DNA of 64,000 nucleotides from Candidatus Saccharimonadales bacterium (GTDB taxonomy: Bacteria > Patescibacteriota > Saccharimonadia > Saccharimonadales > EFPC-124): contig DATIBO010000006.1 in NCBI GenBank assembly GCA_035457485.1, positions 626,659 through 690,658 of the forward strand. The letters are read 5' to 3'. The notes below the pieces were generated by a model. The model made no database searches. It was given only the letters and a program-made list of their open reading frames with translations, and was not told where the DNA came from. The translations under genes were made by a program, and so were the position numbers. Positions within the stretch are counted from its first letter, which is position 1, and each line of letters begins with the position of its first letter. This document shows, piece after piece, positions 5,517 through 47,135 of the stretch.

Positions 5517-5545
5517 TTGACTTACACACAATATTCCTGTATATT
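5517..5545 (+). promoter_or_regulatory. Sigma-70-type promoter of the rplJL operon
   Basis: TTGACT (5517-5522), 17-nt spacer ending in TG, then TATATT (5540-5545). Confidence 0.55.
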
Positions 5546-5551
5546 TAAGAG

Positions 5552-5727
5552 GAACATTGCCACAGACAGTAGCTGCCCACAAAGCTTAATCCGCTACCGA
5601 GGAATGACACAAAAATCATTTTTACGTTTTAAAGTCTTTGGTAATGCGAGAATCAAAGACTTTTTTGTTTCTCAAGCATTTTAACAATCTGGCCGATCAC
5701 AAATAAAATAACAGGAGTTTAACGACT
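5552..5727 (+). promoter_or_regulatory. Candidate L10 leader with terminator-like attenuator
   Basis: About 175 nt of leader before rplJ. Hairpin AAAGTCTTTG (5631-5640) / CAAAGACTTT (5654-5663) runs into TTTTTTGTTT. Confidence 0.4.
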
Positions 5728-7231: not shown

Positions 7232-8383
7232 ATGTCACAAGAAAAATTTGTTGAATTACTATCGCAGTTAGTTGCAATTGAATCAGTTGCCAGCAACAAG
7301 CAGGCGTTGCACAACGCCGTAGATTTTATAGGGGACCTCATTAAAGATGTGCCTAATGTAACAATCGAAAAACACCAAAGTAACGGTGTGCCGAGCTTGC
7401 TTGCCTACAAAGGCAATAGGACTGCAAAGTTTGATATTTTGCTAAACGCTCATGTCGATGTTGTTCCTGCTGATCCAAGTTCATTTAAAGTAGCTGTAAA
7501 AGACGGTCGAATTTACGGCCGCGGCGTTCTCGACATGAAAGGGACTGCAATTGCACTCGCACAAGTCTTTAAGCAAGCAGTAAACAATGTACCGTACAAC
7601 TTAGGTCTACAAATAGTAAGCGATGAGGAAGTTGGCGGTCAGGATGGCGTGAATTACTATCTAAAAAACGGTCTTGAAGCAGATTTCGTTATCCTTGGTG
7701 AATACAACAACACAAAAAACACAATTTACAACGCAGCGCGCGGCATTTGTTGGATTGAAGTTGGTTTTAAGGGTGAATCTGCTCATGGCGCCCACCTCTG
7801 GCACGGCAGCAATGCAATAGTAAAAGCAAGTGAATTTGTTACAGGCATTCTTAAATGTTACCCAACGCCAAAGGCTGAAACCTGGACAACCACAGCTAAC
7901 ATTGCGACGATTAGCACCGAAAATGAAACCTATAATAAAGTACCCGACAAAGCAAAAGTTAAAATCGACTTTAGATTCACACAAGAGGATCCAAATTTTA
8001 AAGACAAACAAAGTGTAAAAGATTTTGTCAAAAGCATCCACCCAGAGGCCGAACTATTACAGTTTGTGAATTTTGAGCCATCAGTGCATGTAGAAGAGTT
8101 GAATCCGTACGTACAGGGGTTAAGTAGTGCACTTCAGAAGGTAACTGGCAGCCCTGTGAGCTACAAAAGTAGACCGGGCGGCAGCGATGGGCGGCATTTT
8201 GCAGCCAAAAACATCGATGTCGTAGAATTTGGCTTGTACGGTGAAGGTTCACACAGTCCAAATGAGTACATAGAAACAAGTTCGTTTACGGAATATGTTT
8301 CGGTTTTAAACAATTTTTTACAAAATCCTAAGTCACAAGTAAAGGTTGAACAGAATGAACGAAGCTCAGTCGCTTCTAGATAA
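7232..8383 (+). CDS. M20-family metallopeptidase (ArgE/DapE-like)
   Basis: ..NAHVDVVPA.., ..GRGVLDMKG.., ..SDEEVGG... Confidence 0.75.
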   Translation: MSQEKFVELLSQLVAIESVASNKQALHNAVDFIGDLIKDVPNVTIEKHQSNGVPSLLAYKGNRTAKFDILLNAHVDVVPADPSSFKVAVKDGRIYGRGVLDMKGTAIALAQVFKQAVNNVPYNLGLQIVSDEEVGGQDGVNYYLKNGLEADFVILGEYNNTKNTIYNAARGICWIEVGFKGESAHGAHLWHGSNAIVKASEFVTGILKCYPTPKAETWTTTANIATISTENETYNKVPDKAKVKIDFRFTQEDPNFKDKQSVKDFVKSIHPEAELLQFVNFEPSVHVEELNPYVQGLSSALQKVTGSPVSYKSRPGGSDGRHFAAKNIDVVEFGLYGEGSHSPNEYIETSSFTEYVSVLNNFLQNPKSQVKVEQNERSSVASR

Positions 8384-9443
8384 ATTAGTAGGCGCTAAAT
8401 CAGTCACTGGCGACCGCGATGGCACAAAGCTGGCCATGGATGTTGTTGAAGAGCGCCTTAAAAAAATTGGTATGCAGATTTATCGCACTAGCTTCGACGG
8501 CTATGAGGCGTTGGTTGCCACTACTCAAAAAACGAAAACTCCAAAAGTTATGCTAGCGGGCCATATTGATGTAGTTCCGGCTAGCGACGATATGTTTAAA
8601 ATGCAGATTGCTGGCGACAAGATTATTGGCCGCGGCGTTTGGGACATGAAATCCGCCATTGCCGGATATATTTTGGCAGCCGAAAGCCTAAAAGATAATT
8701 TGCTGGACTACGATTTTGGAATAATGTTAAGCAGCGACGAAGAGGGGCCTGATAGAGGAATCGAAGACTTAATCGGAGAAGGTTATTTCCCAACAGATCA
8801 GGCGATCTTATTCGATGGCGCCGAAAATTGGCAGCTTGAGAAAGCCGCTAAAGGGATCACAGCTTACACAGTAAAGATCAAAGACAAAACTGGTCACGGA
8901 TCACGACCATGGCTAGTTAATAGTGCCTCGATGCGGCTGATTGAGCTCTTAAAAGAAGTTAAGGACCTATTTGCTGACGCTGGCAAGTTAACTAACACTT
9001 TAAACTTAAGCGGCCTAGAATCGGGTAAAATTGGTGTGGCCTACAATCAAATTCCGGCCGAAGCTACCGCGATGTTCGAGTTTAGAGCCGTAAGCGCCAC
9101 TGAGCGCGACAGATTAAAATCTGCAATCGAAAAAATCTGCCAAAAATACGACGCCCAATACGAAATATTTTTTAGCACCGAAGCGCTCTTCCATGACGAA
9201 AGCGATCCGCACTATATTCAATTTGCAAAAAGTGTTAAAAAAGTTACCGGGATAGAAAACAAAGGGTTTGTAAGCTCAGGAGGAAGTAGCGCCCGGTACT
9301 TTATTGACAAAGGAACTGGCTGCATAGTCACTTGGCCGGTCGGCGGGGGTCATCATAGTGAATCAGAGTGGATTGATGTCCAATCTCTAGACCACATCGC
9401 ACCCGTAATCACTGACTATCTACAAAAAATGGCCAAAGTTTAA
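8355..9443 (+). CDS. M20-family metallopeptidase (ArgE/DapE-like), second copy
   Basis: ..GHIDVVPA.., ..GRGVWDMKS.., ..SDEEGP... ATG 8355 is preferred over TTG 8346. Overlaps the upstream gene. Confidence 0.75.
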   Translation: MNEAQSLLDKLVGAKSVTGDRDGTKLAMDVVEERLKKIGMQIYRTSFDGYEALVATTQKTKTPKVMLAGHIDVVPASDDMFKMQIAGDKIIGRGVWDMKSAIAGYILAAESLKDNLLDYDFGIMLSSDEEGPDRGIEDLIGEGYFPTDQAILFDGAENWQLEKAAKGITAYTVKIKDKTGHGSRPWLVNSASMRLIELLKEVKDLFADAGKLTNTLNLSGLESGKIGVAYNQIPAEATAMFEFRAVSATERDRLKSAIEKICQKYDAQYEIFFSTEALFHDESDPHYIQFAKSVKKVTGIENKGFVSSGGSSARYFIDKGTGCIVTWPVGGGHHSESEWIDVQSLDHIAPVITDYLQKMAKV

Positions 9444-30186: not shown

Positions 30187-30918
30187 TTGACAAACAACCC
30201 CAACTTAGTCAATCATGTGCTTGTGAAAGAAAAACAGCGTAGAACTTTTACCATAATTATTGCAGTTTTAGCTATTTGCCTGGGCCTGTTTTTCAGCAAT
30301 CAGCCTCCGCAAAGTAAGGTTGAGAGCGAACAAATATCAATAAATAGCGAGAATGCGCTGGTAGCTCTAGAAAAACTGCAAGTCAAAGGGCGCGCACCAA
30401 AAACTGATTACTCACGTGATCAGTTTGGTGATGGCTGGGACAGCTTAGATGGATGCGATGTCAGAAATCTAGTTTTAAAGCGTGATCTAACAGAATCTAA
30501 ATTTGATCAAGATGGATGTACTGTTTTGTCAGGGAAGTTACATGATCCGTACTCTGAAAAGCAGATAGACTTTACGAAAGGCGAGGCGACAAGTCAGCTC
30601 GTTCAGATAGACCACGTAGTAGCCTTATCTGATGCGTGGCAAAAAGGCGCCCAGGACTTAAGTGCTCAAAAACGCCAGGAACTTGCTAACGATTCGCTAA
30701 ATTTACTAGCGGTAGATGGTAAATTGAACCAGCAGAAAAGTGATAGCGACGCAGCTAGCTGGCTACCACCCAATAAAAATTATAGGTGCGCTTACGTTGC
30801 CAGGCAGATCGCAGTTAAGACTAAGTACTTACTCTGGGTTACGTCGGCCGAATACACAGCTTTGAAAAATGTTTTACAAGGATGTCCAGATCAGGTTTTG
30901 CCAGTCGAGTCAGGATGA
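30187..30918 (+). CDS. Membrane-anchored extracytoplasmic DUF1524 (His-Me finger/HNH-like) nuclease
   Basis: N-terminal TM. ..QIDHVVALSDAWQKGA.. ..NLLAVDGKLNQQKSDSD.. ..WLPPNKNYRCAYV... Start codon uncertain (TTG 30187). Confidence 0.7.
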   Translation: MTNNPNLVNHVLVKEKQRRTFTIIIAVLAICLGLFFSNQPPQSKVESEQISINSENALVALEKLQVKGRAPKTDYSRDQFGDGWDSLDGCDVRNLVLKRDLTESKFDQDGCTVLSGKLHDPYSEKQIDFTKGEATSQLVQIDHVVALSDAWQKGAQDLSAQKRQELANDSLNLLAVDGKLNQQKSDSDAASWLPPNKNYRCAYVARQIAVKTKYLLWVTSAEYTALKNVLQGCPDQVLPVESG

Positions 30919-32351
30919 AAACAACCACTCATGCTTCATGGCAAATTGCGGCCATGAGCTGGGGAGTAATTTGCGGCGCTGCGCTTTCGTGTTTTGTAAA
31001 CGTCGAAATTAATCTGTTGATCGTGGTTATTGGCATATTGGGTTGTATAGTATGTGTTGCGTTTAGGTTCGTCCTACTGTTGCCATTGGCTTTTGCTGGC
31101 GGCTTGCTTTTAGGAATGGCAGTGAACAACTTTCAATCTAATCAGATTGAAAAATATCAACCTATATACGGAAAACAGGTCTTAGTAACTGGCATTGTAT
31201 CCGAAGATGTTTCCAAGAACGAAAAAGATGAGCAACAGATTAAACTTACCCAAGTATCGGCAGCGGGTCAAAATTTAAGCGGTGTAATTTGGCTAAGTAC
31301 GCGCGATGGCAACTTAATAAAACGTGGTGATTTTATAGCAGCACAAGGCAAACTTGACCACGGATTTGGCAATATTCCGGCCTCAATCTTCAAAGCCAAA
31401 ATTATAAAGGTAGAGCAACCTGTGCCGGGTGACTTAGCGCGCATCGCCCGAGATTGGTTCGCGGATGCAGTTCGCATAGCGATACCATCGCCACAGGTAG
31501 ACCTTGGGTTGGGTTATCTGCTTGGGCAGCAGAATGAGCTTCCACACGACTTGAATGAAAAACTTAAGCTCCTCGGGTTAACACATGTCGTCGTAGCAAG
31601 TGGCTACAATCTTACAATTTTGGTAAGGTTTGCTCGCAAAAGTTTTTTAAATATCTCTAAACGATTGTCGGTGCTAGTAACCTCCGCTATGATAATCGGA
31701 TTTGTTTTAATGACCGGCTTTAGCCCAAGTATGAGTAGAGCTGCAATTGTGACAGGCCTGTGTTTAGCGGCCTGGTATTATGGACGCAATATTCATCCGC
31801 TAGTTTTGCTACCATTTGTAGCCGCAACAACCCTATTATTAAATCCCGGTTCAATTAACGGCGACTTAGGCTGGTACTTATCGTTTGGGTCATTTGCAGG
31901 GGTTATTATTTTAGCACCACTCGTCAATTCGTTCTTTTGGCGCAACAAAGATCCTGGCATTTTACGCGAAATTTTCGTTGGTACTCTGTGCGCCCAGATT
32001 GTAACGTTGCCAATTATCCTGCTTTATTTTGGCCAATATTCACCACTGGCACTTTTTGCGAATGTGATGATTCTACCTCTCATACCCCCCGCGATGCTGT
32101 TTATATTTTTGGCTGGGATCTCAGGAATATTGGTACCAAATTTTGCGGAGATTTTAGGCTTACCGGCATTCTGGATATTAAAATATATGACCAGTATCGT
32201 CGACTGGATAGCAAGCATACCATTCGCAAAAGGTGAGGTACACTTTAATGTCCTCTCGCTGATTTTTAGCTATACAGTTATCGTAATCTTAACTTTATTC
32301 TTATGGCGCGCTACAAAATTCAACTTTTACAAAAGTAGTGTCTTGGAATAG
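30915..32351 (+). CDS. comEC: Competence channel protein ComEC/Rec2, lacking the C-terminal metallo-beta-lactamase domain
   Basis: ..GLTHVVVASGYNLTIL.., N-terminal OB-like region, about 10 TM. The protein ends right after the TM core (478 aa from ATG 30915). ATGA overlap with the nuclease gene. Confidence 0.8.
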   Translation: MKTTTHASWQIAAMSWGVICGAALSCFVNVEINLLIVVIGILGCIVCVAFRFVLLLPLAFAGGLLLGMAVNNFQSNQIEKYQPIYGKQVLVTGIVSEDVSKNEKDEQQIKLTQVSAAGQNLSGVIWLSTRDGNLIKRGDFIAAQGKLDHGFGNIPASIFKAKIIKVEQPVPGDLARIARDWFADAVRIAIPSPQVDLGLGYLLGQQNELPHDLNEKLKLLGLTHVVVASGYNLTILVRFARKSFLNISKRLSVLVTSAMIIGFVLMTGFSPSMSRAAIVTGLCLAAWYYGRNIHPLVLLPFVAATTLLLNPGSINGDLGWYLSFGSFAGVIILAPLVNSFFWRNKDPGILREIFVGTLCAQIVTLPIILLYFGQYSPLALFANVMILPLIPPAMLFIFLAGISGILVPNFAEILGLPAFWILKYMTSIVDWIASIPFAKGEVHFNVLSLIFSYTVIVILTLFLWRATKFNFYKSSVLE

Positions 32352-33953: not shown

Positions 33954-35858
33954 TTAAGTAGCTCTAAAGGCCATAACTTTATAAACCTCAGATGGAGGAT
34001 CGCAACCCAAAATACCTAAAACATTCACCCACGAAATTGCCAAGGTGTTAGCTGCACTCACTCTGGCTCCAATCATTCCACAACCGTTAGTTAACGAGGG
34101 TTTGTTTACAATAACCGTGTCGTCTGTGGTCAATCCATTTACGGTAAATGTTTGCTCGCTAGTGGATGCTGCTGGAACGTTTGCAGGATTAATAGTCGGC
34201 GCATAGTACCTAATCTGTGTAATCGCAGTTCCCGAAGCACCCACAGTCAACCCAGAAGAGACTTCTGCGTTTGTCGTCTGTGTTCTATTGGCAGAAGTGT
34301 CTACATTAAACACGTTAGTGCTGGATGAGTTTTGAACAGTGAAAGCGTTGGTTCCGTTGGTATCGTTCCTGAAAATCGTATTATCACCAGTAAATACTTG
34401 AGAATCTCGACTAAGAAGCGCAACGTTACTACTCAGGCGTGCATCCGCTAAAGTTCCGCTAGAAATATTGCTCGCATTTAAGCTAGTTAATGCGGATCCA
34501 TTGAGGGCGGGGAGCAAACCAGATCCATCGAGCTGAACAAGTTGTCCGGCGGCGTTAAAGCTATTTCCCTGCAATGTCACATTAGTGCTCAACCTTGCGT
34601 CGCCAACAGTACCCGTTGCCAAACTAGAAGCATTAAGATTAGTAAGGTTCTCACCGGAGATTACAGGCAAAACCCCGCCCGCGGTGGTTTGAACCAATTG
34701 GCTCGTGCCGTTAAAAGTATTGCCCTGCGTAGTAACATTTGAGCTCAGCCTAGAATCATTCAAGGTACCACTGCTAATATTACTAGCATTCAATCCCGTT
34801 AGACTACTGCCAACCCCAACAAAATTACCGGCGATTACTGTTCCGCTAACATTTATGTGACCAGTTTGAGGGGTGCCGGGCGTAACGGCTTGCAGATCAA
34901 CACAGTCAGTACACCCAACAGGTAGGTTAGTAAGATTGGCGCCCGAAACCGCAGGTAATGCACCTGAGCCATCTAGCTGCACAAGCTGATTGACACCATT
35001 AAATGTGTTGCCTTGAACGGTCACGGTTGAGTTTAATCTTAAATTAGACAAAGTTCCTGTGGTGATCTGAGATGCATTAATACTGGTCAAGTTTGCGCCC
35101 GAAAGAACTGGCAATTCGCCGCTACCATTTGTTTGCACCAGCTGACTATTGCCGTTGAAGTTGTTGCCCTGTAATGTAACACTCGAACTAAGCAATCCAT
35201 TGGCGACAGTACCTACTAAATTACCCGCGCTCAAAGAAGTTAAGCTTGAACCGTTTCCTTGAAAGCTGCTAGCAACTACTCCATTTACATAAACATAGCC
35301 AGATTCCTGAGTGGTGGGCGAAACTTGGAGCGAGACACATGAGCCATTGGGACAAGAGGCTACGCCGTTTGTTCCATCTTGGCCAGCGGGTCCTTGCGCG
35401 CCAGCTACACCCTGAACACCTTGGATTCCTTGAGGTCCTTGAATTCCGGCAATTCCATCGGTTCCATCGGTTCCATCCAACCCGTCATCTCCATCCTCGC
35501 CATCTACTCCATTGATGCCATCCAGCCCTGGTACTCCCTGTGAACCCGCCGGGCCGATCGCTAAAGTTGCATCTTGATTACTGTTGCCCAGTTCCTGAAC
35601 TTGCAAAGTCGGATCATCCAACGTGGTCGTATCTAGCTGGGCAACCTGTTCGATACTTGCAGGATTGTTCGAGACTTGCTCTGCCAGATTTTTATAAACG
35701 CTAAAAAGCACATCCATACTGGTAGATTTGCGGTAAACATCAAACGTCAGTAGCAAAATTGCCACCACTACTGCCGCACTGAGCAAGCCAAAAAGAACGT
35801 TTTTACGCCTTTTTGCCGCTGATTTGCTACTGATATTGGATTCGCTCGTTGAGCGCAT
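33954..35858 (-). CDS. Membrane-anchored collagen-like fibre protein with tail-fibre-type repeats
   Basis: N-terminal TM. About 20 G-X-Y triplets (..GPAGSQGVPGLDGINGVDGEDGDDGLDGTDGTDG..). Four ..QGNxFNGxxQLVQ..SG.LP..SG.NLT.LNAS.. repeats and a C-terminal globular domain. Confidence 0.75.
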   Translation of the reverse strand: MRSTSESNISSKSAAKRRKNVLFGLLSAAVVVAILLLTFDVYRKSTSMDVLFSVYKNLAEQVSNNPASIEQVAQLDTTTLDDPTLQVQELGNSNQDATLAIGPAGSQGVPGLDGINGVDGEDGDDGLDGTDGTDGIAGIQGPQGIQGVQGVAGAQGPAGQDGTNGVASCPNGSCVSLQVSPTTQESGYVYVNGVVASSFQGNGSSLTSLSAGNLVGTVANGLLSSSVTLQGNNFNGNSQLVQTNGSGELPVLSGANLTSINASQITTGTLSNLRLNSTVTVQGNTFNGVNQLVQLDGSGALPAVSGANLTNLPVGCTDCVDLQAVTPGTPQTGHINVSGTVIAGNFVGVGSSLTGLNASNISSGTLNDSRLSSNVTTQGNTFNGTSQLVQTTAGGVLPVISGENLTNLNASSLATGTVGDARLSTNVTLQGNSFNAAGQLVQLDGSGLLPALNGSALTSLNASNISSGTLADARLSSNVALLSRDSQVFTGDNTIFRNDTNGTNAFTVQNSSSTNVFNVDTSANRTQTTNAEVSSGLTVGASGTAITQIRYYAPTINPANVPAASTSEQTFTVNGLTTDDTVIVNKPSLTNGCGMIGARVSAANTLAISWVNVLGILGCDPPSEVYKVMAFRAT

Positions 35859-35921: not shown

Positions 35922-36941
35922 CTATTTTTCGTCAGATTCTGGCTCTAAAATCTTTTTACTTTTAATCTCGTAACGCCTACCCGTCATACTAGACTCAACG
36001 TAGTCATCGTTTAATAGATTCACAAATTTATTAAGGTCTTTAACATCCATGATGATAATGGCGCCCGAATCATCAGTCATAAGCTCAACACCGAGTTCTT
36101 CGGCGTGATTCAAGAGATCTTCTTGCTTCACAGACTGCGGATCAATTTTTTGCAATTTGTTGATCAGCGTTTTACTAGCTTTAACCATGGTCTGAAGATC
36201 AAGCTCGTCTGCAAAGCTTAAAGTGAAGTTGGCGTTAATTTCATCGACTTTCTTTTCGGCAATCGCATTCTTTTTAGCATTATAATTAAATAAACGCTCA
36301 AGCTTGCTTTGATTAAAAACATAGACGTCCTGCTCGAGTAATAGAATCTGGTTATCAGCCGGAATCCGCAACGCGGCGCCCGGATCAAGTGCTTCAAAAG
36401 TTTGTGCACCGATAGTCCAACCGCCAATGCCTTTAACAACATTAGCCGCGGAGAGCGACTTAATTACGTAAAAAGATTTCTCCATTTCGGGATGACTGCA
36501 ACGTGCGATCAAGCCGCGCATACGACGCAAGTCGTGATCGTCTTCGTTGAACATTTCCATTTCATGTTCTTGGCCACCAAGCCAGCGCATCGCCTCAACC
36601 ATCTTTTCGATATTATCGAGCTGAGTTCTTTGTAAAACGTTATCTTCCTCTTCTGCCTCTTCGAAACCGCGCACGACTAAGCCTTCGCCTGCGCCAGTCA
36701 TAACAAACTCTAAAATATTGTCTAAGAGTAGGGGAATCAACTGTTTGCCTACCTCAGGTTTATGCTGAGTCCGATACAAAACATTGTTTTTACTAAGCAA
36801 GAACAACTCAATTTTTAGGTTGTCTTTGTACATAAAAAGGTTGTTAGCCCAGTTAAATATATCTGTCTGCTCACGCTCCACGGGTGCAGCATTTTCAGTA
36901 GTTTCGGTTGTCGCGCTCGGCGTGATAGATGTTTGTTCCAT
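35922..36941 (-). CDS. Hypothetical cytoplasmic protein (339 aa); possible DUF4868/KwaB-like, unverified
   Basis: Clean ORF with GAAGGG SD. The family suggestion rests only on length and overall pattern recalled from memory. No KwaA-like membrane partner is adjacent. Confidence 0.55.
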   Translation of the reverse strand: MEQTSITPSATTETTENAAPVEREQTDIFNWANNLFMYKDNLKIELFLLSKNNVLYRTQHKPEVGKQLIPLLLDNILEFVMTGAGEGLVVRGFEEAEEEDNVLQRTQLDNIEKMVEAMRWLGGQEHEMEMFNEDDHDLRRMRGLIARCSHPEMEKSFYVIKSLSAANVVKGIGGWTIGAQTFEALDPGAALRIPADNQILLLEQDVYVFNQSKLERLFNYNAKKNAIAEKKVDEINANFTLSFADELDLQTMVKASKTLINKLQKIDPQSVKQEDLLNHAEELGVELMTDDSGAIIIMDVKDLNKFVNLLNDDYVESSMTGRRYEIKSKKILEPESDEK

Positions 36942-37092: not shown

Positions 37093-38913
37093 ATGATTGT
37101 AAGGAACCTGCTAAAAAGAGTGGGCGTTATTGTGGTTGCAGTAACTATAGTGGCAAGCAATTTTGCCTTCGAGACTCCAGTCAGGGCGCTTGCAACTACT
37201 GATAGCGTAGACGAAATCCACTTTTCTTATGGCGAAAATGCAGGCGAAGTGATTTTTAACTGGCGCGGATCTGAAACCGCCTTTTTTTATGGTCTAGACT
37301 CCAACTACGGTCAACAAGCCACAGCCTATCAATCGGCAATTAGCCCATGGGACACAACCGGTCCATTCTACGAAGTTAAAATTAGCGGCCTAAATGACAA
37401 CACCGAGTATCATTATAAAATCGGCGAAAGCGGCCTAGACCACGCCTTTAAAACACGGTCAACTGGTGATTTTAGCTGGGTGGATGTGGGCGACACAGTG
37501 AGCTCTCACTGCTTTAGCTATATGCCAGCCATGCACCAACTAATTACTAATCAGCAACCAAATGTCGTTACGCATGGTGGTGATATATCGGTTCTGGATG
37601 GTTGTGGCGTAGAAGCAGTTAACTCATACTACACCGATCAAGAAGTTTGGTCGCATTTTGCGGCTTTTCAACCCGCTTGGGGTAACCATGAGTACGCCGA
37701 GGCCAAGCCCGAGGCACCTGCAGGAACTCCACGCGATAGCCTCGCAAACTACAAAGGCCGAAGTTACATAACAAACGCACAAACAGTACCTAACGACACC
37801 GAAACAAAGACTAGCAACCCGGGTTGTGGTGGCGATCAAGGTAGTGTCGTGAACACCTGTCTAGGCGAAGACTGGGGCTGGTTTGACAGTGGCAAGGTAA
37901 GATTTATTTCGTACCCCGAGCCGTGGCCGGGCGCGATCGAAGATTGGAAAGTCAAAGCCGATATACTAATGCAGCAAGCTCAAAGCGATGCAAACGTCGA
38001 CTTCATAATCACTTACGGGCACCGCCCTCCTTACACAAACTCAACCGAGGGCCCAAACCTAACAGTTTGTGCAGCCATTGATTACTTGGCCCAAAAATAC
38101 AGTCCGCGCGCCGACAATCAAGGCGGGAAATATATCTTAAATGTTGGGCACCATGCGCACGGCTTAGAAGCTTACGGCAAAGTTAACGGCCTAATGCACG
38201 TGTTGAGTGCAGCTGGCGGTCAAGGCTTTACACCAACCGCTAACACAACGCCTCCATCCGAATTCCGTGTGCGCAGGTTAGGAATTTTAGCCGGCAATTA
38301 TAACGCCCAAAATGGAACATTAGGAATTAGGTTTGTGTGCGGACCAGATTTTCTATGGATCAAGGATGTGTGCGAGTATGGCAGTACAATTTGGAGCATG
38401 CAATTCACGAAATCCACAGCCCCAGTACCAACCCCCACAGAATGGGTTAGCAATGTTGGCGTAGAAACCAACCTAACAGGCTGGACGGGTAAATACGGCA
38501 GTAGCAACTACGTAAATATTGACCGTTCCACTGAGCAAGCTCACAGCGGCAGCGCGTCCGTAAAAGTTTCGGCCAGCACTGGCGCAAACAATTTATCCAG
38601 TGGCTTTAACGACAGCCCTAAAATAATTGCCAGCACTACCGCAAACATCGGATACACTCAAAGCGTATGGATAAAACCCGGGTACGTTGGCCAAAAAATC
38701 ACATTACGTCTACGTGAGTGGCGACCAAACTGGGCCATGGCAGGTGAGGTGAGCCAAACTATTACTGCAAGTAGTACTGATTGGCAGCGGGTTAGCCAGA
38801 CATATACCACAAAAGAGTCCGGCAATAGCTTAGCTTACATTGTTTACGCCAACGCAATCTCTGCAGGGCAATACTTTTACGTCGACGATCTTTCCTTAAC
38901 TTCGCCAAATTAA
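37093..38913 (+). CDS. Secreted purple-acid-phosphatase-like metallophosphoesterase with C-terminal carbohydrate-binding (CBM4/9-like) module
   Basis: Signal/TM. ..GDTVSSH.., ..GGDIS.., ..GNHEY.., ..GHRPPY.., ..GHHAHG... C-terminal ..AHSGSASVKV.. ..YFYVDDLSL... Confidence 0.7.
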   Translation: MIVRNLLKRVGVIVVAVTIVASNFAFETPVRALATTDSVDEIHFSYGENAGEVIFNWRGSETAFFYGLDSNYGQQATAYQSAISPWDTTGPFYEVKISGLNDNTEYHYKIGESGLDHAFKTRSTGDFSWVDVGDTVSSHCFSYMPAMHQLITNQQPNVVTHGGDISVLDGCGVEAVNSYYTDQEVWSHFAAFQPAWGNHEYAEAKPEAPAGTPRDSLANYKGRSYITNAQTVPNDTETKTSNPGCGGDQGSVVNTCLGEDWGWFDSGKVRFISYPEPWPGAIEDWKVKADILMQQAQSDANVDFIITYGHRPPYTNSTEGPNLTVCAAIDYLAQKYSPRADNQGGKYILNVGHHAHGLEAYGKVNGLMHVLSAAGGQGFTPTANTTPPSEFRVRRLGILAGNYNAQNGTLGIRFVCGPDFLWIKDVCEYGSTIWSMQFTKSTAPVPTPTEWVSNVGVETNLTGWTGKYGSSNYVNIDRSTEQAHSGSASVKVSASTGANNLSSGFNDSPKIIASTTANIGYTQSVWIKPGYVGQKITLRLREWRPNWAMAGEVSQTITASSTDWQRVSQTYTTKESGNSLAYIVYANAISAGQYFYVDDLSLTSPN

Positions 38914-38944: not shown

Positions 38945-40045
38945 ATGCTTATTGCTCAAGCTCAAGATTTGCGACTTTACTTGTTTGCAGCCATATTTGG
39001 TTCTATGGCGGTCGGCTCTGCTGCCGGTTTCTTGTTGGCGGATTACCGACCCGGATTTAGGTTTACAGTGAGTCTGGCTTTAGTAACCTCATTGCTAAGT
39101 GTGTTCGCAATCCCGTTTTTCGTACGCACCATAAAACTTTTTACAGATGAAGTTAAAAAAGCATACGTCATGTTGTGTGTTGGGCTCGGAATCTTTGCAG
39201 TCGCGCAAATTCAGATTCCAGTGGTTAATATTTTAAATGCAGTTTTCTGGCTAGAATCTGGTGGTGTTGCAACAATTTACGTTTTTAGCGCAGTCTTCGT
39301 GTTGCTGGCTATGCGAAAATTCGCAAAAATCCTTGGCGTAAAATCAGTTTGGTCATCTGTTACTTTAGGTGTTGCAGTGGCAATCTCAACTAGTCTTATG
39401 ATCTCATTTTTGCCACATGTAAGCACCGGCGCTAGCGAATTGGTGTTTGACGTTTTCCAGTCCGTTACTGTTTGTAACGTGGTTTTTGTATTTTTTGCTG
39501 GCATGCTGGGCTTGCAGATTCTGCCAAAAATGTCGGTTGCTTACAAAAGCGCGGTAGAGTGGCTAACAGTTGCATTTTATATTTTAGCTTTTGGCGGACT
39601 TCACTTTTTAATTGTTAGGTTGTTTTTAACCGAAGCCGATTGGTATTTAGATTTCAGTCTTACCATTATTCCGTTCACAGCTGGAGCTTTTGCGTTTTTA
39701 ATCGCCGGTTACAAAGCGAGTTTGCTAAATGTAATCAATCAGCCTCAACAAAGTAATCAAGTTTCAGAAATCGAAATGGTAACTTTTTTAGCCTCCTTCG
39801 CTTCGCAACCATCTAAGATCGAATCAGTTTTAGACGACATAAGCTCTGTGTCTGCTCAAGTCAAACCTGGAGAAAAATTGTCTGCAGCGCAGATCGCCGT
39901 GCTTAAAAATGCATACTTAAAACTGCAAAATTACTTAACCACAAGTGACCCCATACGTGTTTATTCAAAACAAGAATTGCAAGGCATAATTAAGGCTAAA
40001 TTCGGCAATAAAGCATTTGATAATTTTAATTTAGGAGCAGAGTAA
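38945..40045 (+). CDS. Polytopic membrane protein with C-terminal helical soluble domain (paralog of 44694-45770)
   Basis: About 8 TM followed by a roughly 90-aa soluble tail. See the permutation finding. Confidence 0.6.
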   Translation: MLIAQAQDLRLYLFAAIFGSMAVGSAAGFLLADYRPGFRFTVSLALVTSLLSVFAIPFFVRTIKLFTDEVKKAYVMLCVGLGIFAVAQIQIPVVNILNAVFWLESGGVATIYVFSAVFVLLAMRKFAKILGVKSVWSSVTLGVAVAISTSLMISFLPHVSTGASELVFDVFQSVTVCNVVFVFFAGMLGLQILPKMSVAYKSAVEWLTVAFYILAFGGLHFLIVRLFLTEADWYLDFSLTIIPFTAGAFAFLIAGYKASLLNVINQPQQSNQVSEIEMVTFLASFASQPSKIESVLDDISSVSAQVKPGEKLSAAQIAVLKNAYLKLQNYLTTSDPIRVYSKQELQGIIKAKFGNKAFDNFNLGAE

Positions 40046-42670: not shown

Positions 42671-43477
42671 TTAAGCTGGACGCAGAGCAAGCGTTGCGGT
42701 TGCCCAACGTCGAGCTTGAGTGGATGTTGCGGTAAAGGGACCTTGCGATCCAGTTCCCGGAGTTATCCTATCGTAACAAGCAATAGCCGCGTTGTTAGCA
42801 GAACCTGAAGCTGTACAAACCGTAACTTCGTCACCAAAGCCTGTGGGTTCAGTCCAGTCAGCCGCGGTTAAAGTTGTACCAGCAGTAGTTGGAAGTCCGT
42901 GCACTGTTACTAACATTGCCCCCGTTGTGGCAACAGTAATCGCGGGCGCTGTCACAGAAGTGCTCGTCGAGTCTAACTGAGAAAACACCGTGGTTGCGTC
43001 GAGTGGAGTAGTTTGGTTAACGCCACTATATGCTCTAACCTGACCCGAGTAGTTTGCAGACGAAACCGAGGTAGATGTCACATTAGTGCCAGCGTCGCCG
43101 ACCTGGGCGATACGTGTAAACACACCTATCGTAAACGCTGAAGTTCCAGCTCGCTGCTCACCAACTTTTGTCCAGCCAGTAATTGCATTAAATAAGGTTG
43201 CGGAGTTCGAGGTCTGCGAGACAACCAAAACCAAAAGATCGCCTGTTTGAACAGTTCCGGGAATCGGAACATCTAAGCTACTTACAGTGAGGGCGTTGTT
43301 ACTTCCGCTTGTTCTAAAGGCAATCACTGCTGCGCTGCCAAAAATCGTCACCCACGAGCTGCCGTTCCAATATTTAATATCACTGGGCTCTACCCAAGCA
43401 GACCCACTCCAATACGCAGTTTTGTTCTTAGTAAGCGCAACCCAACTCGTGCCGTTCCATACCTGAGGTGTTGCCAT
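42671..43477 (-). CDS. Phage minor-tail/fibre-like protein
   Basis: N-terminal ..VWNGTSWV.. ..YWSGSAWV.. ..YWNGSSWV.. repeats and a Thr/Ser/Ala-rich beta-type remainder. 3-nt gap to the upstream fibre-like gene. Confidence 0.5.
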   Translation of the reverse strand: MATPQVWNGTSWVALTKNKTAYWSGSAWVEPSDIKYWNGSSWVTIFGSAAVIAFRTSGSNNALTVSSLDVPIPGTVQTGDLLVLVVSQTSNSATLFNAITGWTKVGEQRAGTSAFTIGVFTRIAQVGDAGTNVTSTSVSSANYSGQVRAYSGVNQTTPLDATTVFSQLDSTSTSVTAPAITVATTGAMLVTVHGLPTTAGTTLTAADWTEPTGFGDEVTVCTASGSANNAAIACYDRITPGTGSQGPFTATSTQARRWATATLALRPA

Positions 43478-43480
43478 GAC

Positions 43481-44584
43481 TTAGGGTTGAATCCAGAGGT
43501 CGCCGGTAGTCGGATTTGATGGCTGAGACGCCCCATAGCTTACTTTGCGATCAACGTTTGGCGCCGAAATTACACCGCTAGCACTAACCGATGCTAAAAC
43601 CGTGTTATCAGACTGCGTCCATTCAGTAAGATTAGCGCTTTGAGTATTGGATCGTTGCTGTACTCTAAACGGAACTGAGTTATCTGCGGCTGCACGCGAC
43701 CTAAGTTCGCCCTTTTCGTTATGGTAACCCGTACGAATGCCGTTGTAATAAAAAGCCATAGAGTCAGGAGTTGAGCCCGATGCTGTGTAGTTAAGATCAA
43801 TACGCGCAAATCCATTAGTTGTAGCATTGCTTGTAACTGTTCCTGCGTTTTCGCCCGCAAGCAACATCACGCTTGAAGTATCAGCCTTTAGATTCAATGC
43901 TGTTTGGGTAGCGGTGCTAATCGGCTTATTGGCATCACTTGTGTTGTCGACATTTCCTAGTCCAACGTCGCTCTTAGTTAGAGCTAAGTCGGTCTTAAGT
44001 TGAGCAGGCGTGCGACTAGCCCAAGCGCCAGCCTTTCGCTGAATGACATCGTCGTTAGTCGGAGTAAGCGCCGCTATATCAGTAAGGTCAGAGTCGAGCG
44101 GTTGTTTTCCGGCAAGATCAGTTGTTAAGCTGGCGACCTTACTTTGAGCAATATTCGCACTACCCGAGATATTAGTATCTGTAATCGTAGAGTTGGCAAT
44201 TTTTGCGCCAGTTACAGCGCCCGCCGAGATGAGAGGAGCGGCTGCCGTCGTTCCTACTCCGCCCAAGTCGCCGGCTAGTCTAACCAGACCATTTGTACTG
44301 GTTGTGGCATCAGGAGCTCCGCTACTTGCAACGTTATCTACGTAGTCTTTGTTTGCGGCCTGAGTAGCGGTGGTTGGAGTTGGGACAATAGGGGACGAAG
44401 AAAAAGTTTTAACACCGGCGACAGTTTCGCTACCTGTATTATGAACAACTGCACTATCATCGGCCTTATTGGAGACTGCGGAAGGCCGCAAAGTTCCATC
44501 AGAATTGAGCGACACCAAAAGAAAGTCGTTTAAAACACTTCCCCACGTACCGTTATCTGAACCTGGAGTAGGTAGTCTACTCAT
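43481..44584 (-). CDS. Phage tail-fibre-like protein
   Basis: ..LPTPGSDNGTWGSVLNDFL.. and ..VAGVKTFSSSPIVPTPTTATQAANKDYVDN.. are tail-fibre-type motifs. ATG 44584 is preferred over TTG 44596. Confidence 0.6.
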   Translation of the reverse strand: MSRLPTPGSDNGTWGSVLNDFLLVSLNSDGTLRPSAVSNKADDSAVVHNTGSETVAGVKTFSSSPIVPTPTTATQAANKDYVDNVASSGAPDATTSTNGLVRLAGDLGGVGTTAAAPLISAGAVTGAKIANSTITDTNISGSANIAQSKVASLTTDLAGKQPLDSDLTDIAALTPTNDDVIQRKAGAWASRTPAQLKTDLALTKSDVGLGNVDNTSDANKPISTATQTALNLKADTSSVMLLAGENAGTVTSNATTNGFARIDLNYTASGSTPDSMAFYYNGIRTGYHNEKGELRSRAAADNSVPFRVQQRSNTQSANLTEWTQSDNTVLASVSASGVISAPNVDRKVSYGASQPSNPTTGDLWIQP

Positions 44585-44693
44585 TATTGAAACCAACTAA
44601 GCACATACCCCTATTCTACAGTACTAATGCTTATAAGTTAAAGCTTTTTTCAACTTTGGCGCATACAAAGTAATGCGTTAAACTAAACTTAGT

Positions 44694-45770
44694 ATGTATT
44701 CTGATGCAGTAGCGCCAAACCCGACCAAACAGCAAGTTGAGAGAATTTTACAGCTGGCAAAACTAGGCTCAAGCCCAGAGGCGGTCGATCAAATGCTGGA
44801 GTCTTTACGCGAAGTTACGGCGCAGTGGGATGGTCAGTCACCGCTTGATCCAAGTAATCAACTTCGCCTGCAATCACTCGAAAACGAACTGCGCGATTAC
44901 CTAATAACCAAGGATCCGCTGCGCAAACTCACACCCGAAACGATAGATAACTATTTAAAATCGCCTGAAAAAACCAGCACCGCAACGCTTACGCAAGTCA
45001 TTGTAATTGTTCTTTTGTCATTTTTTAATGCGGTCAGCGCCTTGATTTTGCCAGTGCTCGGGCTAGTTCCCTGGCAAAACGGCTTTTTACTAATGGTACC
45101 ACTATTTTTCGTAACTCTTCATATCGGCATCGCGTGGCTTTATTTTTCGGCGCTAAGCAATTTTAAGCAAGAATTTAAAAATGCTTTTGTACTTATTTGC
45201 ATGGGCATTTTGCTTTTGAGCGTAGTTTTTTCGCATTACGTGATAATTGAGCTGCTCGGCCTGGGTAATCTCTTGCTATTTAGATATGGCGGCATCCTTG
45301 CGCTTGTTACCGCCAGCTTTGGATTAATCTACTTTGGCTTACGCAAATACGCCGGCCTGCTTAAAATTAATAACTTTTTTACATCACTTAAATGGCTGGG
45401 CTTGGTTTCGGTTGCAGTTATTGCAGCCGCCGTTCTCGCTCCACATCCAGGTCAACAAAGTTTTGAACCCTTCTTTGACTTTGCGCTCGCAAGTATGTGG
45501 CTTTTTACAATGTTTGTTGGTTTCAGCGCAGGAGTCGCTCGACAAATTAGCAAAAATGTTACGATTGCTTATGCAAAATCCATGAAATGGCTATATATTT
45601 ACCTGATTCTGGGCTTCGTGGGCTCATTCGGCGGCACCATCGGCTTGCCTCTAGTGGGTGAGCTAAATGGCGGCTTTTTGTATGTTCTGATCGGAGTGAT
45701 GGGTGTAATTCCGCAGCTATTCCTTCTTTACACCGGCTACTTGTTTAAAAAAGAAACCAGTTTAACGTAA
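44694..45770 (+). CDS. Polytopic membrane protein with N-terminal helical soluble domain (paralog of 38945-40045)
   Basis: About 90-aa soluble head, then about 8 TM. The TM core aligns with 38945-40045. Confidence 0.6.
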   Translation: MYSDAVAPNPTKQQVERILQLAKLGSSPEAVDQMLESLREVTAQWDGQSPLDPSNQLRLQSLENELRDYLITKDPLRKLTPETIDNYLKSPEKTSTATLTQVIVIVLLSFFNAVSALILPVLGLVPWQNGFLLMVPLFFVTLHIGIAWLYFSALSNFKQEFKNAFVLICMGILLLSVVFSHYVIIELLGLGNLLLFRYGGILALVTASFGLIYFGLRKYAGLLKINNFFTSLKWLGLVSVAVIAAAVLAPHPGQQSFEPFFDFALASMWLFTMFVGFSAGVARQISKNVTIAYAKSMKWLYIYLILGFVGSFGGTIGLPLVGELNGGFLYVLIGVMGVIPQLFLLYTGYLFKKETSLT

Positions 45771-46176: not shown

Positions 46177-46268
46177 CAACATTTACATTAAGTAAAATTA
46201 TGCTATAGTTAGTCGGTCATGGAGGAGCGCATGTTTTACGTGCGCCTGACAATCGAAATGGAGTGCAG

Positions 46269-47135
46269 ATGCCTCTCATCGAGGACATCGGGAACTGGAT
46301 CCAGGGAGCAGCGGCCACGTGCCTCGACTTCCTGGGCAAGATCCCGCGCGCTGTGTTCGGCGACGCCGTGGATTCGGAGTACGGCCGATGGGCTGCGACG
46401 CTCGTGTTCATCGCGATCGTCTCTTACGCCATCACCGGCATCCGATCGGTGTCGACGCTGTTCGTCGCCAAGTTCGACCTGGGGTTCAGCCAGGCGAAGA
46501 TCGACGACTACAACGACAAGCGCGGCGAGAACGACGAGAAGTACGTGTTCGACTGGGGCAAGGCGCGACGACAGCAGTCGCGCAGCCTGTCGTTCCTGTG
46601 GCCGGTCGGTCTGATCGCGCTGGGCAGCATGTACTACTGGGTGCGCTACGACCTCACCAGCAAGGGCTACTTCCTGCTGGCGATGGCGTGGTTCGCCTTC
46701 TACCTGCTGGTCATCAAGCCGTGGTGGATCAACACCAAGCTCCGCAGCGACCGCAACCTGGTCGACTCGGGCGTGATCACCCGCGACAAGGCGCCGTACT
46801 ACCACTTCAGCACCCGGCAGGGCATCCAGCACTACATGGGCTGGGGCCTTTACGGGCGCAAGAAGCAGCGCAGCCCGATCTTCATCGGCGGGCTCCGCTA
46901 CGTGCGATGGATCCTGGCGCCGTTCGCCTGGGTCCGCAAGCGCATGATCACGCCGTTCCTGTGGATCTGCGTCCTGGCAGCGGCCTGGATGATCACCGCT
47001 CCGCTCATCGTGTTCTGGCTGGGAACCCGTTTCGACCGGCGCCGCTACTGGCTCCGGCCGCCGTGGGCCCCGGACTACGCGATCGAACCGACGATCCACG
47101 AGTTCGTCGCCACAAGCGACAGCTCGAGCAGCTGA
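46269..47135 (+). CDS. GC-rich islet D ORF, hypothetical 4-TM membrane protein
   Basis: ATG 46269 with GGAG 5 nt upstream (the ORF track uses GTG 46263). Nearly all codons end in G/C. TM segments ..WAATLVFIAIVSYAITGI.., ..LSFLWPVGLIALGSMYYWV.., ..GYFLLAMAWFAFYLLVI.., ..FLWICVLAAAWMITAPLIVFWL... Three other long ORFs here are shadows. Confidence 0.6.
   Translation: MPLIEDIGNWIQGAAATCLDFLGKIPRAVFGDAVDSEYGRWAATLVFIAIVSYAITGIRSVSTLFVAKFDLGFSQAKIDDYNDKRGENDEKYVFDWGKARRQQSRSLSFLWPVGLIALGSMYYWVRYDLTSKGYFLLAMAWFAFYLLVIKPWWINTKLRSDRNLVDSGVITRDKAPYYHFSTRQGIQHYMGWGLYGRKKQRSPIFIGGLRYVRWILAPFAWVRKRMITPFLWICVLAAAWMITAPLIVFWLGTRFDRRRYWLRPPWAPDYAIEPTIHEFVATSDSSSS

What the first reader, a model, noticed from the sequence alone, without database searches (positions are those of the whole stretch)
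42671..44596. Orphan pair of phage-tail-fibre-like genes with no other phage genes nearby
The gene at 43481-44584 begins ..LPTPGSDNGTWGSVLNDFL.. and contains ..GVKTFSSSPIVPTPTTATQAANKDYVDN.., both typical of tail-fibre proteins. The next gene, 3 nt downstream, opens with three W(N/S)G(T/S)(S/A)WV repeats like actinophage minor tail proteins. One line I counted (43021) is 30/60 G+C, above most neighbouring lines. The flanks are an MFS transporter and a membrane-protein paralog. There is no capsid, terminase, integrase or tape-measure gene in the window. Inference: these are domesticated receptor-binding proteins, possibly of phage origin, reused for attachment to another cell, or the last remnant of a prophage.
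Basis: partly seen in the sequence, partly recalled or inferred. Interest (0 to 1): 0.6.

Follow-up and report, generated by a model that had tools for sequence, protein, structure and literature searches.

The report
Chromosomal phage-fibre-like gene pair in Saccharimonadales
A tiny parasitic bacterium (Candidatus Saccharimonadales) carries a conserved two-gene cassette built from phage tail-fibre parts, kept under selection among housekeeping genes and not a dead prophage; it probably makes a fibre plus a lectin-like tip for gripping another cell.

Summary
Two minus-strand genes 3 nt apart (A, 44584-43481, 367 aa; B, 43477-42671, 268 aa) carry the quoted motifs. No phage hallmark gene was found in the 64 kb window.

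A is a mosaic of phage fibre modules. It matches DUF5907, a BppL_N-like motif and PHROG tail-fibre families, and 314 phage records, mostly actinophage minor tail proteins. B has no sequence match in phages, but its confident AlphaFold model (pLDDT 90.6) matches predicted mycobacteriophage minor tail proteins.

The pair is not a decaying remnant:
- GC3 is typical of the genome.
- ORFs are intact in about 33 B protein clusters, and synonymous sites are saturated while pN is 0.23-0.34.
- In 7 of 7 relatives examined, the pair lies between truB and rpsO.
- A and B are about as conserved as TruB.

Across Saccharibacteria, fibre genes with this N-terminus are nearly always followed, tightly coupled, by a variable beta-sandwich or lectin-like partner gene. 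One paralog lies between secY and infA.

Best reading: a domesticated two-component fibre (shaft plus tip subunit), probably for host-cell recognition. This is functionally like Bdellovibrio MAT fibres. Neither protein has a signal peptide, so export and the adhesion role remain unproven.

The parts
44613..44641 (-). Promoter-like site TTAACT-17-TAGAAT, about 29 nt upstream of the ATG of gene A, in the divergent intergenic region
   Evidence: Consensus scan and sequence. It is a consensus match only, and the number of such sites in the region is no higher than in shuffles.
43481..44584 (-). Gene A: 367-aa mosaic phage-tail-fibre-like protein (NCBI VLA77_03865, 'hypothetical protein')
   Evidence: The start at ATG 44584 agrees with orthologs that begin M[AS]RLP.
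44480..44584 (-). A residues 1-35: conserved N-terminal adaptor motif MxRLPxPGxDxGxWGxxLNDFL..DGTLK, shared by the whole Saccharibacteria fibre family
   Evidence: Nearly invariant columns in A2. Present in nearly all A-family genes of about 40 Saccharibacteria loci. 64-73% identical to N-termini of proteins in 6 records of Streptomyces phages (BRock and others). Absent from ORFs of 80 IMG/VR loci.
44396..44452 (-). A residues 45-63: BppL_N-like motif (VVHNTGSETVAGVKTFSSS), followed by the PTP..ANKDYVD helix
   Evidence: Pfam PF18338, 25.6 bits against a cut-off of 25.8. phrog_38418, E 6.6e-19.
44150..44314 (-). A residues 91-145: DUF5907 repeat
   Evidence: Pfam PF19264, 30.8 bits against a cut-off of 27.
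43856..44116 (-). A residues about 157-243: shaft module DLTDIAALTP..RKAGAW..RTPAQLKTDL..DVGLGNVDNTSDANKPIS, the part most widely shared with phage fibres
   Evidence: PHROG tail fiber and minor tail hits on residues about 197-250. More than 577 IMG/VR stretches and 314 phage records. Some orthologs carry a different module here.
43484..43894 (-). A residues about 231-367: C-terminal beta-rich domain ending GDLWIQP, the part that always co-occurs with gene B
   Evidence: 61-77% identical in every B-partnered fibre, even when the shaft differs. 40% identical over residues 159-365 to a Streptomyces phage pSs2407 protein encoded between the major tail and tape-measure genes. AF2 pLDDT about 70-83 for this region.
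42671..43477 (-). Gene B: 268-aa partner protein (NCBI VLA77_03860, 'hypothetical protein'), no Pfam, PHROG, NCBIfam or PADLOC family
   Evidence: AF2 model has pLDDT 90.6 and pTM 0.82.
43349..43459 (-). B residues 7-43: three W(N/S)G(T/S)(S/A)WV repeats, predicted as short beta-hairpins
   Evidence: The same repeats precede the B domain in a Kelch-propeller fusion protein, P0154.
42674..43321 (-). B residues about 53-268: beta-sandwich domain, a widespread unnamed extracellular or phage module
   Evidence: Foldseek against BFVD gives 74 hits at E<=1e-3, including mycobacteriophage minor tail proteins, with TM 0.55-0.68. No PDB match. A profile search finds 3507 representative proteins, where the domain is combined with Kelch, PKD, CBM_4_9, BNR_assoc_N and T9SS sorting domains.

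Best explanation
The pair is a domesticated, chromosomally fixed two-gene 'fibre cassette' of Saccharimonadales.

Gene A encodes a phage-tail-fibre-type protein with three parts:
- a short N-terminal adaptor that is constant across the whole family;
- exchangeable shaft modules;
- a C-terminal domain.

Gene B is tightly linked 3 nt downstream. It encodes a small protein with three WxGxxW hairpins and a lectin-like beta-sandwich.

Most likely mechanism (inferred): A trimerises into a fibre. Its N-terminus docks on a conserved cellular structure. B binds the A C-terminal domain as the distal tip subunit, as T2/S16 gp38 does on gp37, or alternatively acts as its assembly partner. The complex then recognises a surface polymer of another cell, most plausibly the actinobacterial host of this epibiont.

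Shown: homology of A to phage fibres, fold similarity of B to phage minor tail proteins, absence of phage context, conservation, purifying selection, the specific link between the A C-terminus and B, and the family-wide pattern of a fibre gene plus a variable partner gene.

Inferred: trimerisation, the A-B complex, surface display, and the host-binding role.
For: A is made of phage fibre modules. Its N-terminus matches proteins in Streptomyces phage records, and its C-terminal domain matches a Streptomyces phage pSs2407 protein.

The B model is confident, and its fold matches phage minor tail proteins.

There are no phage genes in the window or within 6-10 kb of the pair in relatives.

In 7 of 7 relatives examined the order is truB-A-B-rpsO, with a 3-15 nt gap between A and B.

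GC3 is native. pS is 0.67-0.86 (saturated) against pN 0.23-0.34. A and B are about as conserved as TruB.

B occurs only alongside the residue 231-367 type of A C-terminus.

Across about 40 Saccharibacteria loci, nearly every fibre gene is followed at -4 to +16 nt by a partner gene. The partner is B-type, remote B-like, LamG_3 or other.

Elsewhere the B domain is combined with extracellular glycan-related domains.

A paralog is embedded between secY and infA.

Precedent: Bdellovibrio MAT fibres are phage-like, mosaic and surface displayed, and they bind prey glycans (PMC10769870). Cultivated Saccharibacteria are epibionts of Actinobacteria (PMC10633639).
Against: Neither protein has a signal peptide, transmembrane segment or sorting motif. 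The ORFs cannot be extended upstream to supply one, so export is unexplained.

The A monomer model is poor (pLDDT 64), and no multimer or A-B complex could be modelled.

No A-B fusion protein was found.

The mirror-tree correlation between the A C-terminus and B is weak (r = 0.25).

B has no detectable sequence homolog in isolated phages or in IMG/VR, so its phage origin rests on predicted folds only.

The actinophage bias of the hits is partly a database effect.

The host of this MAG is unknown.
Confidence: 0.5

Rival explanations
1. A and B form a surface or secreted fibre, but not for host recognition. They might instead serve self-aggregation, biofilm or matrix binding, or glycan capture. 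The B-type beta-sandwich would be a general carbohydrate-binding module.
For: B-domain relatives occur in many non-epibiotic bacteria, in large extracellular proteins with PKD, CBM_4_9, BNR_assoc_N and T9SS domains. DUF5907-type fibre modules also occur in the chromosomes of free-living Bacteroidota.
Against: It shares the unexplained export problem. The N-terminal adaptor together with a variable tip partner is the layout of specificity-determining receptor-binding systems. Several modules are shared specifically with phages of Actinobacteria.
Confidence: 0.2
2. The pair supplies fibres to a phage-derived particle encoded elsewhere. That could be a resident or helper phage, or a tailocin- or GTA-like structure. 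A and B would then assemble in the cytoplasm and be released by lysis, as true phage fibres are.
For: The lack of signal peptides fits cytoplasmic assembly. All parts of A have phage homologs, and the N-terminal adaptor is the region that docks phage fibres to virions (the docking role is general phage knowledge).
Against: No structural, lysis or packaging gene lies in the 64 kb window or near the pair in 7 relatives. Many paralogs are scattered in housekeeping operons such as truB-rpsO and secY-infA. The N-terminal motif and the B domain are absent from 80 IMG/VR loci. These genomes are only about 0.8-1.1 Mb.
Confidence: 0.15
3. The pair has an intracellular anti-phage role. The fibre-like proteins would act as decoys that dock on the baseplates of infecting phages and poison assembly, or would act as sensors.
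For: The proteins appear to be cytoplasmic. The window region holds defence-type genes, namely KwaB and a GmrSD_C protein. The family is diverse, as expected under an arms race.
Against: There is no PADLOC match and no effector domain. The stable position in housekeeping operons, with TruB-like conservation, is unlike defence islands. A lectin-like partner is not needed for a decoy.
Confidence: 0.08
4. The pair is the last decaying remnant of a prophage, with no current function.
For: The genes are phage-like and no other phage genes are present.
Against: ORFs are intact in about 33 B clusters with no frameshifts. Synonymous sites are saturated while pN is 0.23-0.34. GC3 is native. The position is the same in 7 of 7 divergent relatives. 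There is no integrase, tRNA or repeat boundary.
Confidence: 0.02

Closest known systems
Bdellovibrio bacteriovorus MAT (mosaic adhesive trimer) fibre superfamily (PMC10769870)
   Same: Both are chromosomal, multi-paralog families in a bacterium that lives on other bacteria. Both are related to phage tail fibres, with a conserved N-terminal end for retention on the cell and variable C-terminal binding ends.
   Different: MAT proteins have a signal peptide and a conserved beta-rich N-terminal domain of about 130 aa, and many end in an S74 chaperone-protease. A has no signal peptide, only a roughly 35-aa adaptor, and no S74 hit. Its binding head appears to be a separate downstream gene product. 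The lineage is different (monoderm Patescibacteria).
Actinophage minor tail proteins / tail fibres (SEA-PHAGES annotations; PHROG tail families; Pfam DUF5907, BppL_N)
   Same: There is sequence homology of the A modules. The A N-terminus matches proteins in Streptomyces phage records, and the A C-terminal domain matches a Streptomyces phage pSs2407 protein. The fold of B matches mycobacteriophage minor tail proteins.
   Different: The pair is not in a phage genome and has no structural module nearby. No phage record covers 80% or more of A. B has no BLAST-level phage homolog.
Two-gene phage receptor-binding modules: fibre plus downstream tip adhesin or chaperone (T4/T2/S16 gp37-gp38, lambda Stf-Tfa, Mu/P2 fibre-Tfa). 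Named from general knowledge.
   Same: A small gene lies immediately downstream of the fibre gene. It co-varies with the type of fibre C-terminus. It has an N-terminal attachment-like segment followed by a beta-sandwich head.
   Different: There is no homology to the Tfa/Caudo_TAP or gp38 families. B is conserved rather than hypervariable within its orthologs. No complex has been shown.
'Tail fibre-like protein' noted next to the pam pilus operon of CPR bacteria (bioRxiv 10.64898/2026.03.03.709456)
   Same: It is the only mention I found of tail-fibre-like genes as conserved chromosomal genes of Saccharibacteria/CPR.
   Different: That paper only records co-localisation. No accession could be compared, so identity with the A family is untested. 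The window pair is not next to pilus or ATP synthase genes.

Membership tests
Pfam DUF5907 (PF19264) repeat proteins | Score at or above the Pfam gathering threshold | tested here: met
   A residues 91-145 score 30.8 bits against a cut-off of 27. The same domain is precomputed for many homologs.
Caudoviricetes tail fibre / receptor-binding protein (virion component) | Sequence or structural homology to virion fibre proteins | tested here: met
   For A: PHROG tail families at E 1e-8 to 1e-19 and 314 phage records. For B: Foldseek against BFVD, E 3e-11 and TM up to 0.68, to phage minor tail proteins.
Caudoviricetes tail fibre / receptor-binding protein (virion component) | Encoded within a phage or prophage structural module (capsid, terminase, portal, tape measure, baseplate nearby) | tested here: not met
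   None was found in the 64 kb window. None lies within 6-10 kb of the pair in 7 relatives, where the neighbours are truB, rpsO, pnp, holA and fpg.
Caudoviricetes tail fibre / receptor-binding protein (virion component) | Homotrimeric fibre incorporated into virions | not testable with these tools
   Only a monomer prediction was possible. Its pLDDT of 64 and pTM of 0.23 are as expected for an isolated chain of an elongated protein.
Bdellovibrio MAT fibre superfamily | N-terminal signal peptide | tested here: not met
   There is no hydrophobic N-terminal stretch. Maximum KD(19) is 1.23 for A and 1.47 for B, against 2.80 for the TM anchor of the neighbouring collagen-like protein. The ORFs cannot be extended upstream.
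Bdellovibrio MAT fibre superfamily | Conserved beta-rich N-terminal domain of about 130 aa after the signal peptide | not tested
   No MAT sequence was available for comparison. The conserved N-terminal part of A is only about 35 aa, so membership is unlikely.
Bdellovibrio MAT fibre superfamily | Mosaic architecture: constant N-terminal end with variable shaft and tip among many paralogs | tested here: met
   Alignment A2 and about 50 family members in Saccharibacteria loci.
Phage tail fibre assembly protein / tip adhesin (Tfa, gp38) as identity of gene B | Homology to known Tfa/Caudo_TAP or gp38 families | tested here: not met
   B has no Pfam, PHROG or NCBIfam hit and no PDB sequence or fold match.
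Phage tail fibre assembly protein / tip adhesin (Tfa, gp38) as identity of gene B | Encoded immediately downstream of the fibre gene and specific to the type of fibre C-terminus | tested here: met
   The gap is 3-15 nt in all 8 loci. Every B-partnered fibre shares the residue 231-367 domain.
Degenerate prophage remnant | Signs of decay or foreignness: frameshifts, truncations, atypical codon composition, integrase/tRNA/att boundaries | tested here: not met
   Orthologs are intact. GC3 is 0.40-0.42, within the genome range of 0.36-0.48. pN is far below saturated pS. There is no tRNA or integrase.
Known anti-phage defence systems (PADLOC) | Match to a defence-system protein model | tested here: not met
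   No PADLOC hit for A or B.

The most novel reading that the evidence does not exclude
Saccharimonadales have turned the phage receptor-binding module into their own host-recognition organelle. The components would be a family-wide N-terminal adaptor, swappable shaft modules, and a separately encoded, exchangeable lectin-like tip subunit. The cassette is hard-wired into core operons (truB-rpsO, secY-infA). It trades modules with phages that infect the same actinobacterial hosts. It reaches the surface by a signal-peptide-independent route that is not yet known. If so, these cassettes would be the host-range determinants of a major group of uncultivated epibionts.
Probability: 0.3. Interest if true: 0.8.

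Novelty: new variant of a known kind. Interest (0 to 1): 0.6.

Why it matters
How ultrasmall Patescibacteria choose and grip their hosts is largely unknown. Type IV pili, a T4SS and a few adhesins have been implicated (PMC10633639; PMC11665869).

A large, modular, phage-derived family of fibre-plus-partner cassettes sits in conserved housekeeping positions. It gives a concrete, testable candidate for host-range determinants. It could also allow host prediction for uncultured Saccharimonadales by matching tip domains to those of phages with known hosts.

The finding extends the Bdellovibrio MAT precedent to a second, unrelated bacterium-dependent lifestyle. It also raises a specific puzzle: how are these proteins exported without signal peptides?

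Finally, gene B defines an unnamed beta-sandwich domain with thousands of relatives and no solved structure.

Tried and rejected
- **A model.** The monomer model was too poor for a meaningful fold search. The BFVD list is phage-fibre-flavoured but weak.
- **B in phage collections.** tblastn of B and of a remote B-domain relative (P0161) against isolated phages found no hits. B is not in IMG/VR. A B-profile search and an N-terminal motif search in ORFs of 80 IMG/VR loci found no hits.
- **A-B fusions.** A search for Rosetta-stone fusions found none.
- **Co-evolution.** The mirror-tree test of the A C-terminus against B was weak and inconclusive (r = 0.25; B against TruB r = -0.12).
- **dN/dS.** It could not be estimated properly because dS is saturated. 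Only the bound pN << pS is reported.
- **Paralogs.** A search for paralogs of A or B elsewhere in the window found none.
- **Other libraries.** PADLOC and NCBIfam gave no hits for A or B.
- **Literature.** Searches for Saccharibacteria or Patescibacteria with tail fiber/fibre, minor tail protein or DUF5907 found only one passing mention.
- **Rejected: recent horizontal transfer.** The G+C excess lies at codon position 2.
- **Rejected: prophage remnant.** See the rival explanations.
Full report
**What is there.**
The window comes from a Candidatus Saccharimonadales MAG. Both proteins are 100% identical to NCBI entries VLA77_03865 and VLA77_03860, on a contig of 889,392 bp.

Two minus-strand ORFs lie 3 nt apart:
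- Gene A runs 44584->43481 (367 aa).
- Gene B runs 43477->42671 (268 aa).

A promoter-like site lies about 29 nt upstream of A. The 3' end of B abuts the 3' end of a convergent MFS gene. The pair therefore looks like a self-contained two-gene operon.

**No phage context.**
Pfam annotation of the window shows nucleotide metabolism, replication and translation genes. It also shows ComEC, a lipase, transporters, a KwaB homolog, a GmrSD_C protein and envelope proteins. There is no capsid, terminase, portal, integrase or tape-measure gene and no tRNA. A few short ORFs remain unannotated.

**Gene A is a mosaic of phage fibre modules.**
- It passes the Pfam threshold for DUF5907 and scores just below it for BppL_N.
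- It hits PHROG tail-fibre and minor-tail families.
- tblastn finds 314 phage records, dominated by Gordonia, Arthrobacter, Rhodococcus, Mycobacterium and Streptomyces phages annotated 'minor tail protein'. None covers 80% or more of A.
- The shaft module (residues about 157-243) is the widely shared part.
- The C-terminal domain (residues about 231-367) is 40% identical to a protein of Streptomyces phage pSs2407, encoded between the major tail and tape-measure genes.
- The roughly 35-residue N-terminus is 64-73% identical to the N-termini of proteins in 6 records of large Streptomyces phages.
- The monomer AlphaFold model is poor (pLDDT 64), as expected for one chain of an elongated multimer.

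**Gene B.**
B has no Pfam, PHROG, NCBIfam or PADLOC family. It has no BLAST-level homolog in isolated phages or IMG/VR.

Its family is small: 33 clusters, 54-73% identical, all about 265-276 aa.

The AlphaFold model built from these sequences is confident (pLDDT 90.6, pTM 0.82). It shows three short hairpins from the WxGxxW repeats, followed by a beta-sandwich of about 215 residues.
- Nothing in the PDB resembles it.
- 74 predicted viral structures do at E<=1e-3. They include minor tail proteins of mycobacteriophages Hawkeye, DroogsArmy, Gaia, Shauna1 and PP, with TM 0.55-0.68.

A profile search of 1.84 billion representative proteins finds 3507 relatives of the sandwich domain. They often lie in large extracellular proteins, alongside Kelch, PKD, CBM_4_9, BNR-associated and T9SS sorting domains. 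Some relatives lie in phage-like proteins. The domain is therefore a common but unnamed module, plausibly for binding glycans or surfaces.

**Domesticated, not decaying.**
- GC3 of A and B (0.40, 0.42) is typical of the genome's genes (0.36-0.48). The higher total G+C comes from codon position 2, which reflects amino-acid composition.
- Orthologs are intact.
- Synonymous sites are saturated (pS 0.67-0.86), while pN is 0.23-0.34.
- In all seven relatives examined, the order is truB - A - B - rpsO - pnp, in one orientation, with 3-15 nt between A and B. Only housekeeping genes lie around the pair.
- Among four of these genomes, A and B are 53-67% identical, and TruB is 52-69% identical.
- The window genome is the exception. 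The same cassette, with its own promoter-like site, lies between an MFS gene and a membrane-protein gene, so it has been relocated.

**A family-wide two-gene architecture.**
The A family is very large: more than 5800 hits, mostly from Saccharibacteria MAGs, with several paralogs per genome.

I called ORFs in about 40 Saccharibacteria loci. Nearly every gene with the MxRLPxPG..WG..LN N-terminus is followed, at -4 to +16 nt on the same strand, by a partner gene. The partner types are:
- B-type;
- remote B-like sandwiches, in L024, L057 and L072 by profile, and in others by the shared 'VxVPxxxxxGDxLV' first strand;
- LamG_3 lectin-like proteins, in L023, L027 and L172;
- other unknown proteins.

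B occurs only with fibres that carry the residue 231-367 C-terminal domain, whatever the shaft. Orthologous fibres at the truB locus differ in their shaft modules. One paralog lies between secY and infA inside the ribosomal protein operon.

**Mechanism.**
The layout has a constant N-terminal adaptor, exchangeable shaft modules, and a C-terminal domain matched to a separately encoded beta-sandwich. This is the layout of phage receptor-binding modules with a tip adhesin or chaperone. The closest cellular precedent is the Bdellovibrio MAT fibre family, whose members are surface displayed and bind prey glycans (PMC10769870).

Cultivated Saccharibacteria are epibionts of Actinobacteria (PMC10633639), and several A modules are shared with actinophages. 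The best reading is therefore a fibre for recognising the host surface.

The main weakness is export. Neither protein has a signal peptide, TM segment or sorting signal. MAT proteins have signal peptides, and the neighbouring collagen-like fibre has a TM anchor. Assembly in the cytoplasm for a particle encoded elsewhere, or an intracellular anti-phage role, cannot be excluded. Nothing positive supports either.

**Literature.**
I found no paper that describes this family in Saccharibacteria. One 2026 preprint mentions a 'tail fibre-like protein' co-localising with a CPR pilus operon and does not analyse it further.

**Verdict.**
- 'Prophage remnant' is rejected.
- 'Domesticated RBP-like proteins' is supported.
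- 'Used for attachment to another cell' is plausible but unproven.

I rate this a new variant of a known kind: phage-derived mosaic fibres of bacteria that live on other bacteria. It is of moderate to high interest.

Noticed in passing
window 46263-47135 (+): A 290-aa predicted membrane protein (NCBI VLA77_03880) has GC 0.644 and GC3 0.928, in a genome whose genes have GC3 0.36-0.48. Its amino-acid composition is not that of a high-GC organism. It has no Pfam hit and no homolog among 5.8 billion proteins except itself. It is present in two assemblies of the region (the NCBI contig and a Logan contig); whether they derive from separate read sets was not checked. The region has open frames on both strands. 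Its origin is unexplained: chimeric assembly, or very recent transfer from an unknown donor.
   Followed up: partly
L171 10001-11671 (relative of the window genome, contig ERR9924904_3881): A 556-aa paralog of gene A with the same N-terminal adaptor is inserted between secY and infA, inside the ribosomal protein operon.
   Followed up: partly
L172 10001-18274 (GCA_035247965.1): Another fibre cassette. It has a 543-aa fibre with a Phage_phiTE_241_C end, followed 3 nt downstream by a 227-aa Laminin_G_3 protein. Then come a 154-aa protein and a 1793-aa glycine-rich CLIPPER-domain protein.
   Followed up: partly
window 33954-35858 (-): A 634-aa protein with an N-terminal TM anchor, collagen Gly-X-Y repeats and about seven copies of an 'L(T/S)xLNASxISSGTL..RLSSNVTxQGNxFNG..QLVQ' repeat. 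It appears to be a second, membrane-anchored fibre, and it is unrelated in sequence to gene A.
   Followed up: partly
window 35922-36941 (-): A KwaB (DUF4868, Kiwa defence) homolog with no obvious KwaA gene next to it. Its neighbours are the collagen-like fibre gene and a secreted metallophosphatase gene.
   Followed up: partly
window 37093-38913 (+): A 606-aa metallophosphatase-type protein with a hydrophobic, signal-peptide-like N-terminus. Its C-terminal domain (residues 460-598) weakly resembles the NCBIfam 'GTA/phage head spike fiber' domain (E 6.5e-5, below the cut-off).
   Followed up: no
window 38945-40045 (+) and 44694-45770 (+): The two membrane proteins on either side of the region are distant paralogs (23% identity). 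Their soluble and membrane parts are in swapped order, so they are circularly permuted.
   Followed up: partly
window 30187-30918 (+) and 30882-32351 (+): A GmrSD_C restriction-endonuclease-domain protein overlaps by 37 nt the start of a ComEC competence channel gene.
   Followed up: no
window 7232-8383 (+) and 8346-9443 (+): Two tandem, overlapping M20 peptidase paralogs. The L10 leader RNA lies at 5542-5676.
   Followed up: no
L173 5791-6738 (Streptomyces phage BRock, KX925554.1): The phage gene that shares the N-terminal adaptor of gene A is a collagen-repeat protein. It lies inside the phage's tRNA array, not in the tail module. Its annotated start overlaps a tRNA-Lys gene, and the match to MARLP begins 210 nt downstream of that start.
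   Followed up: no
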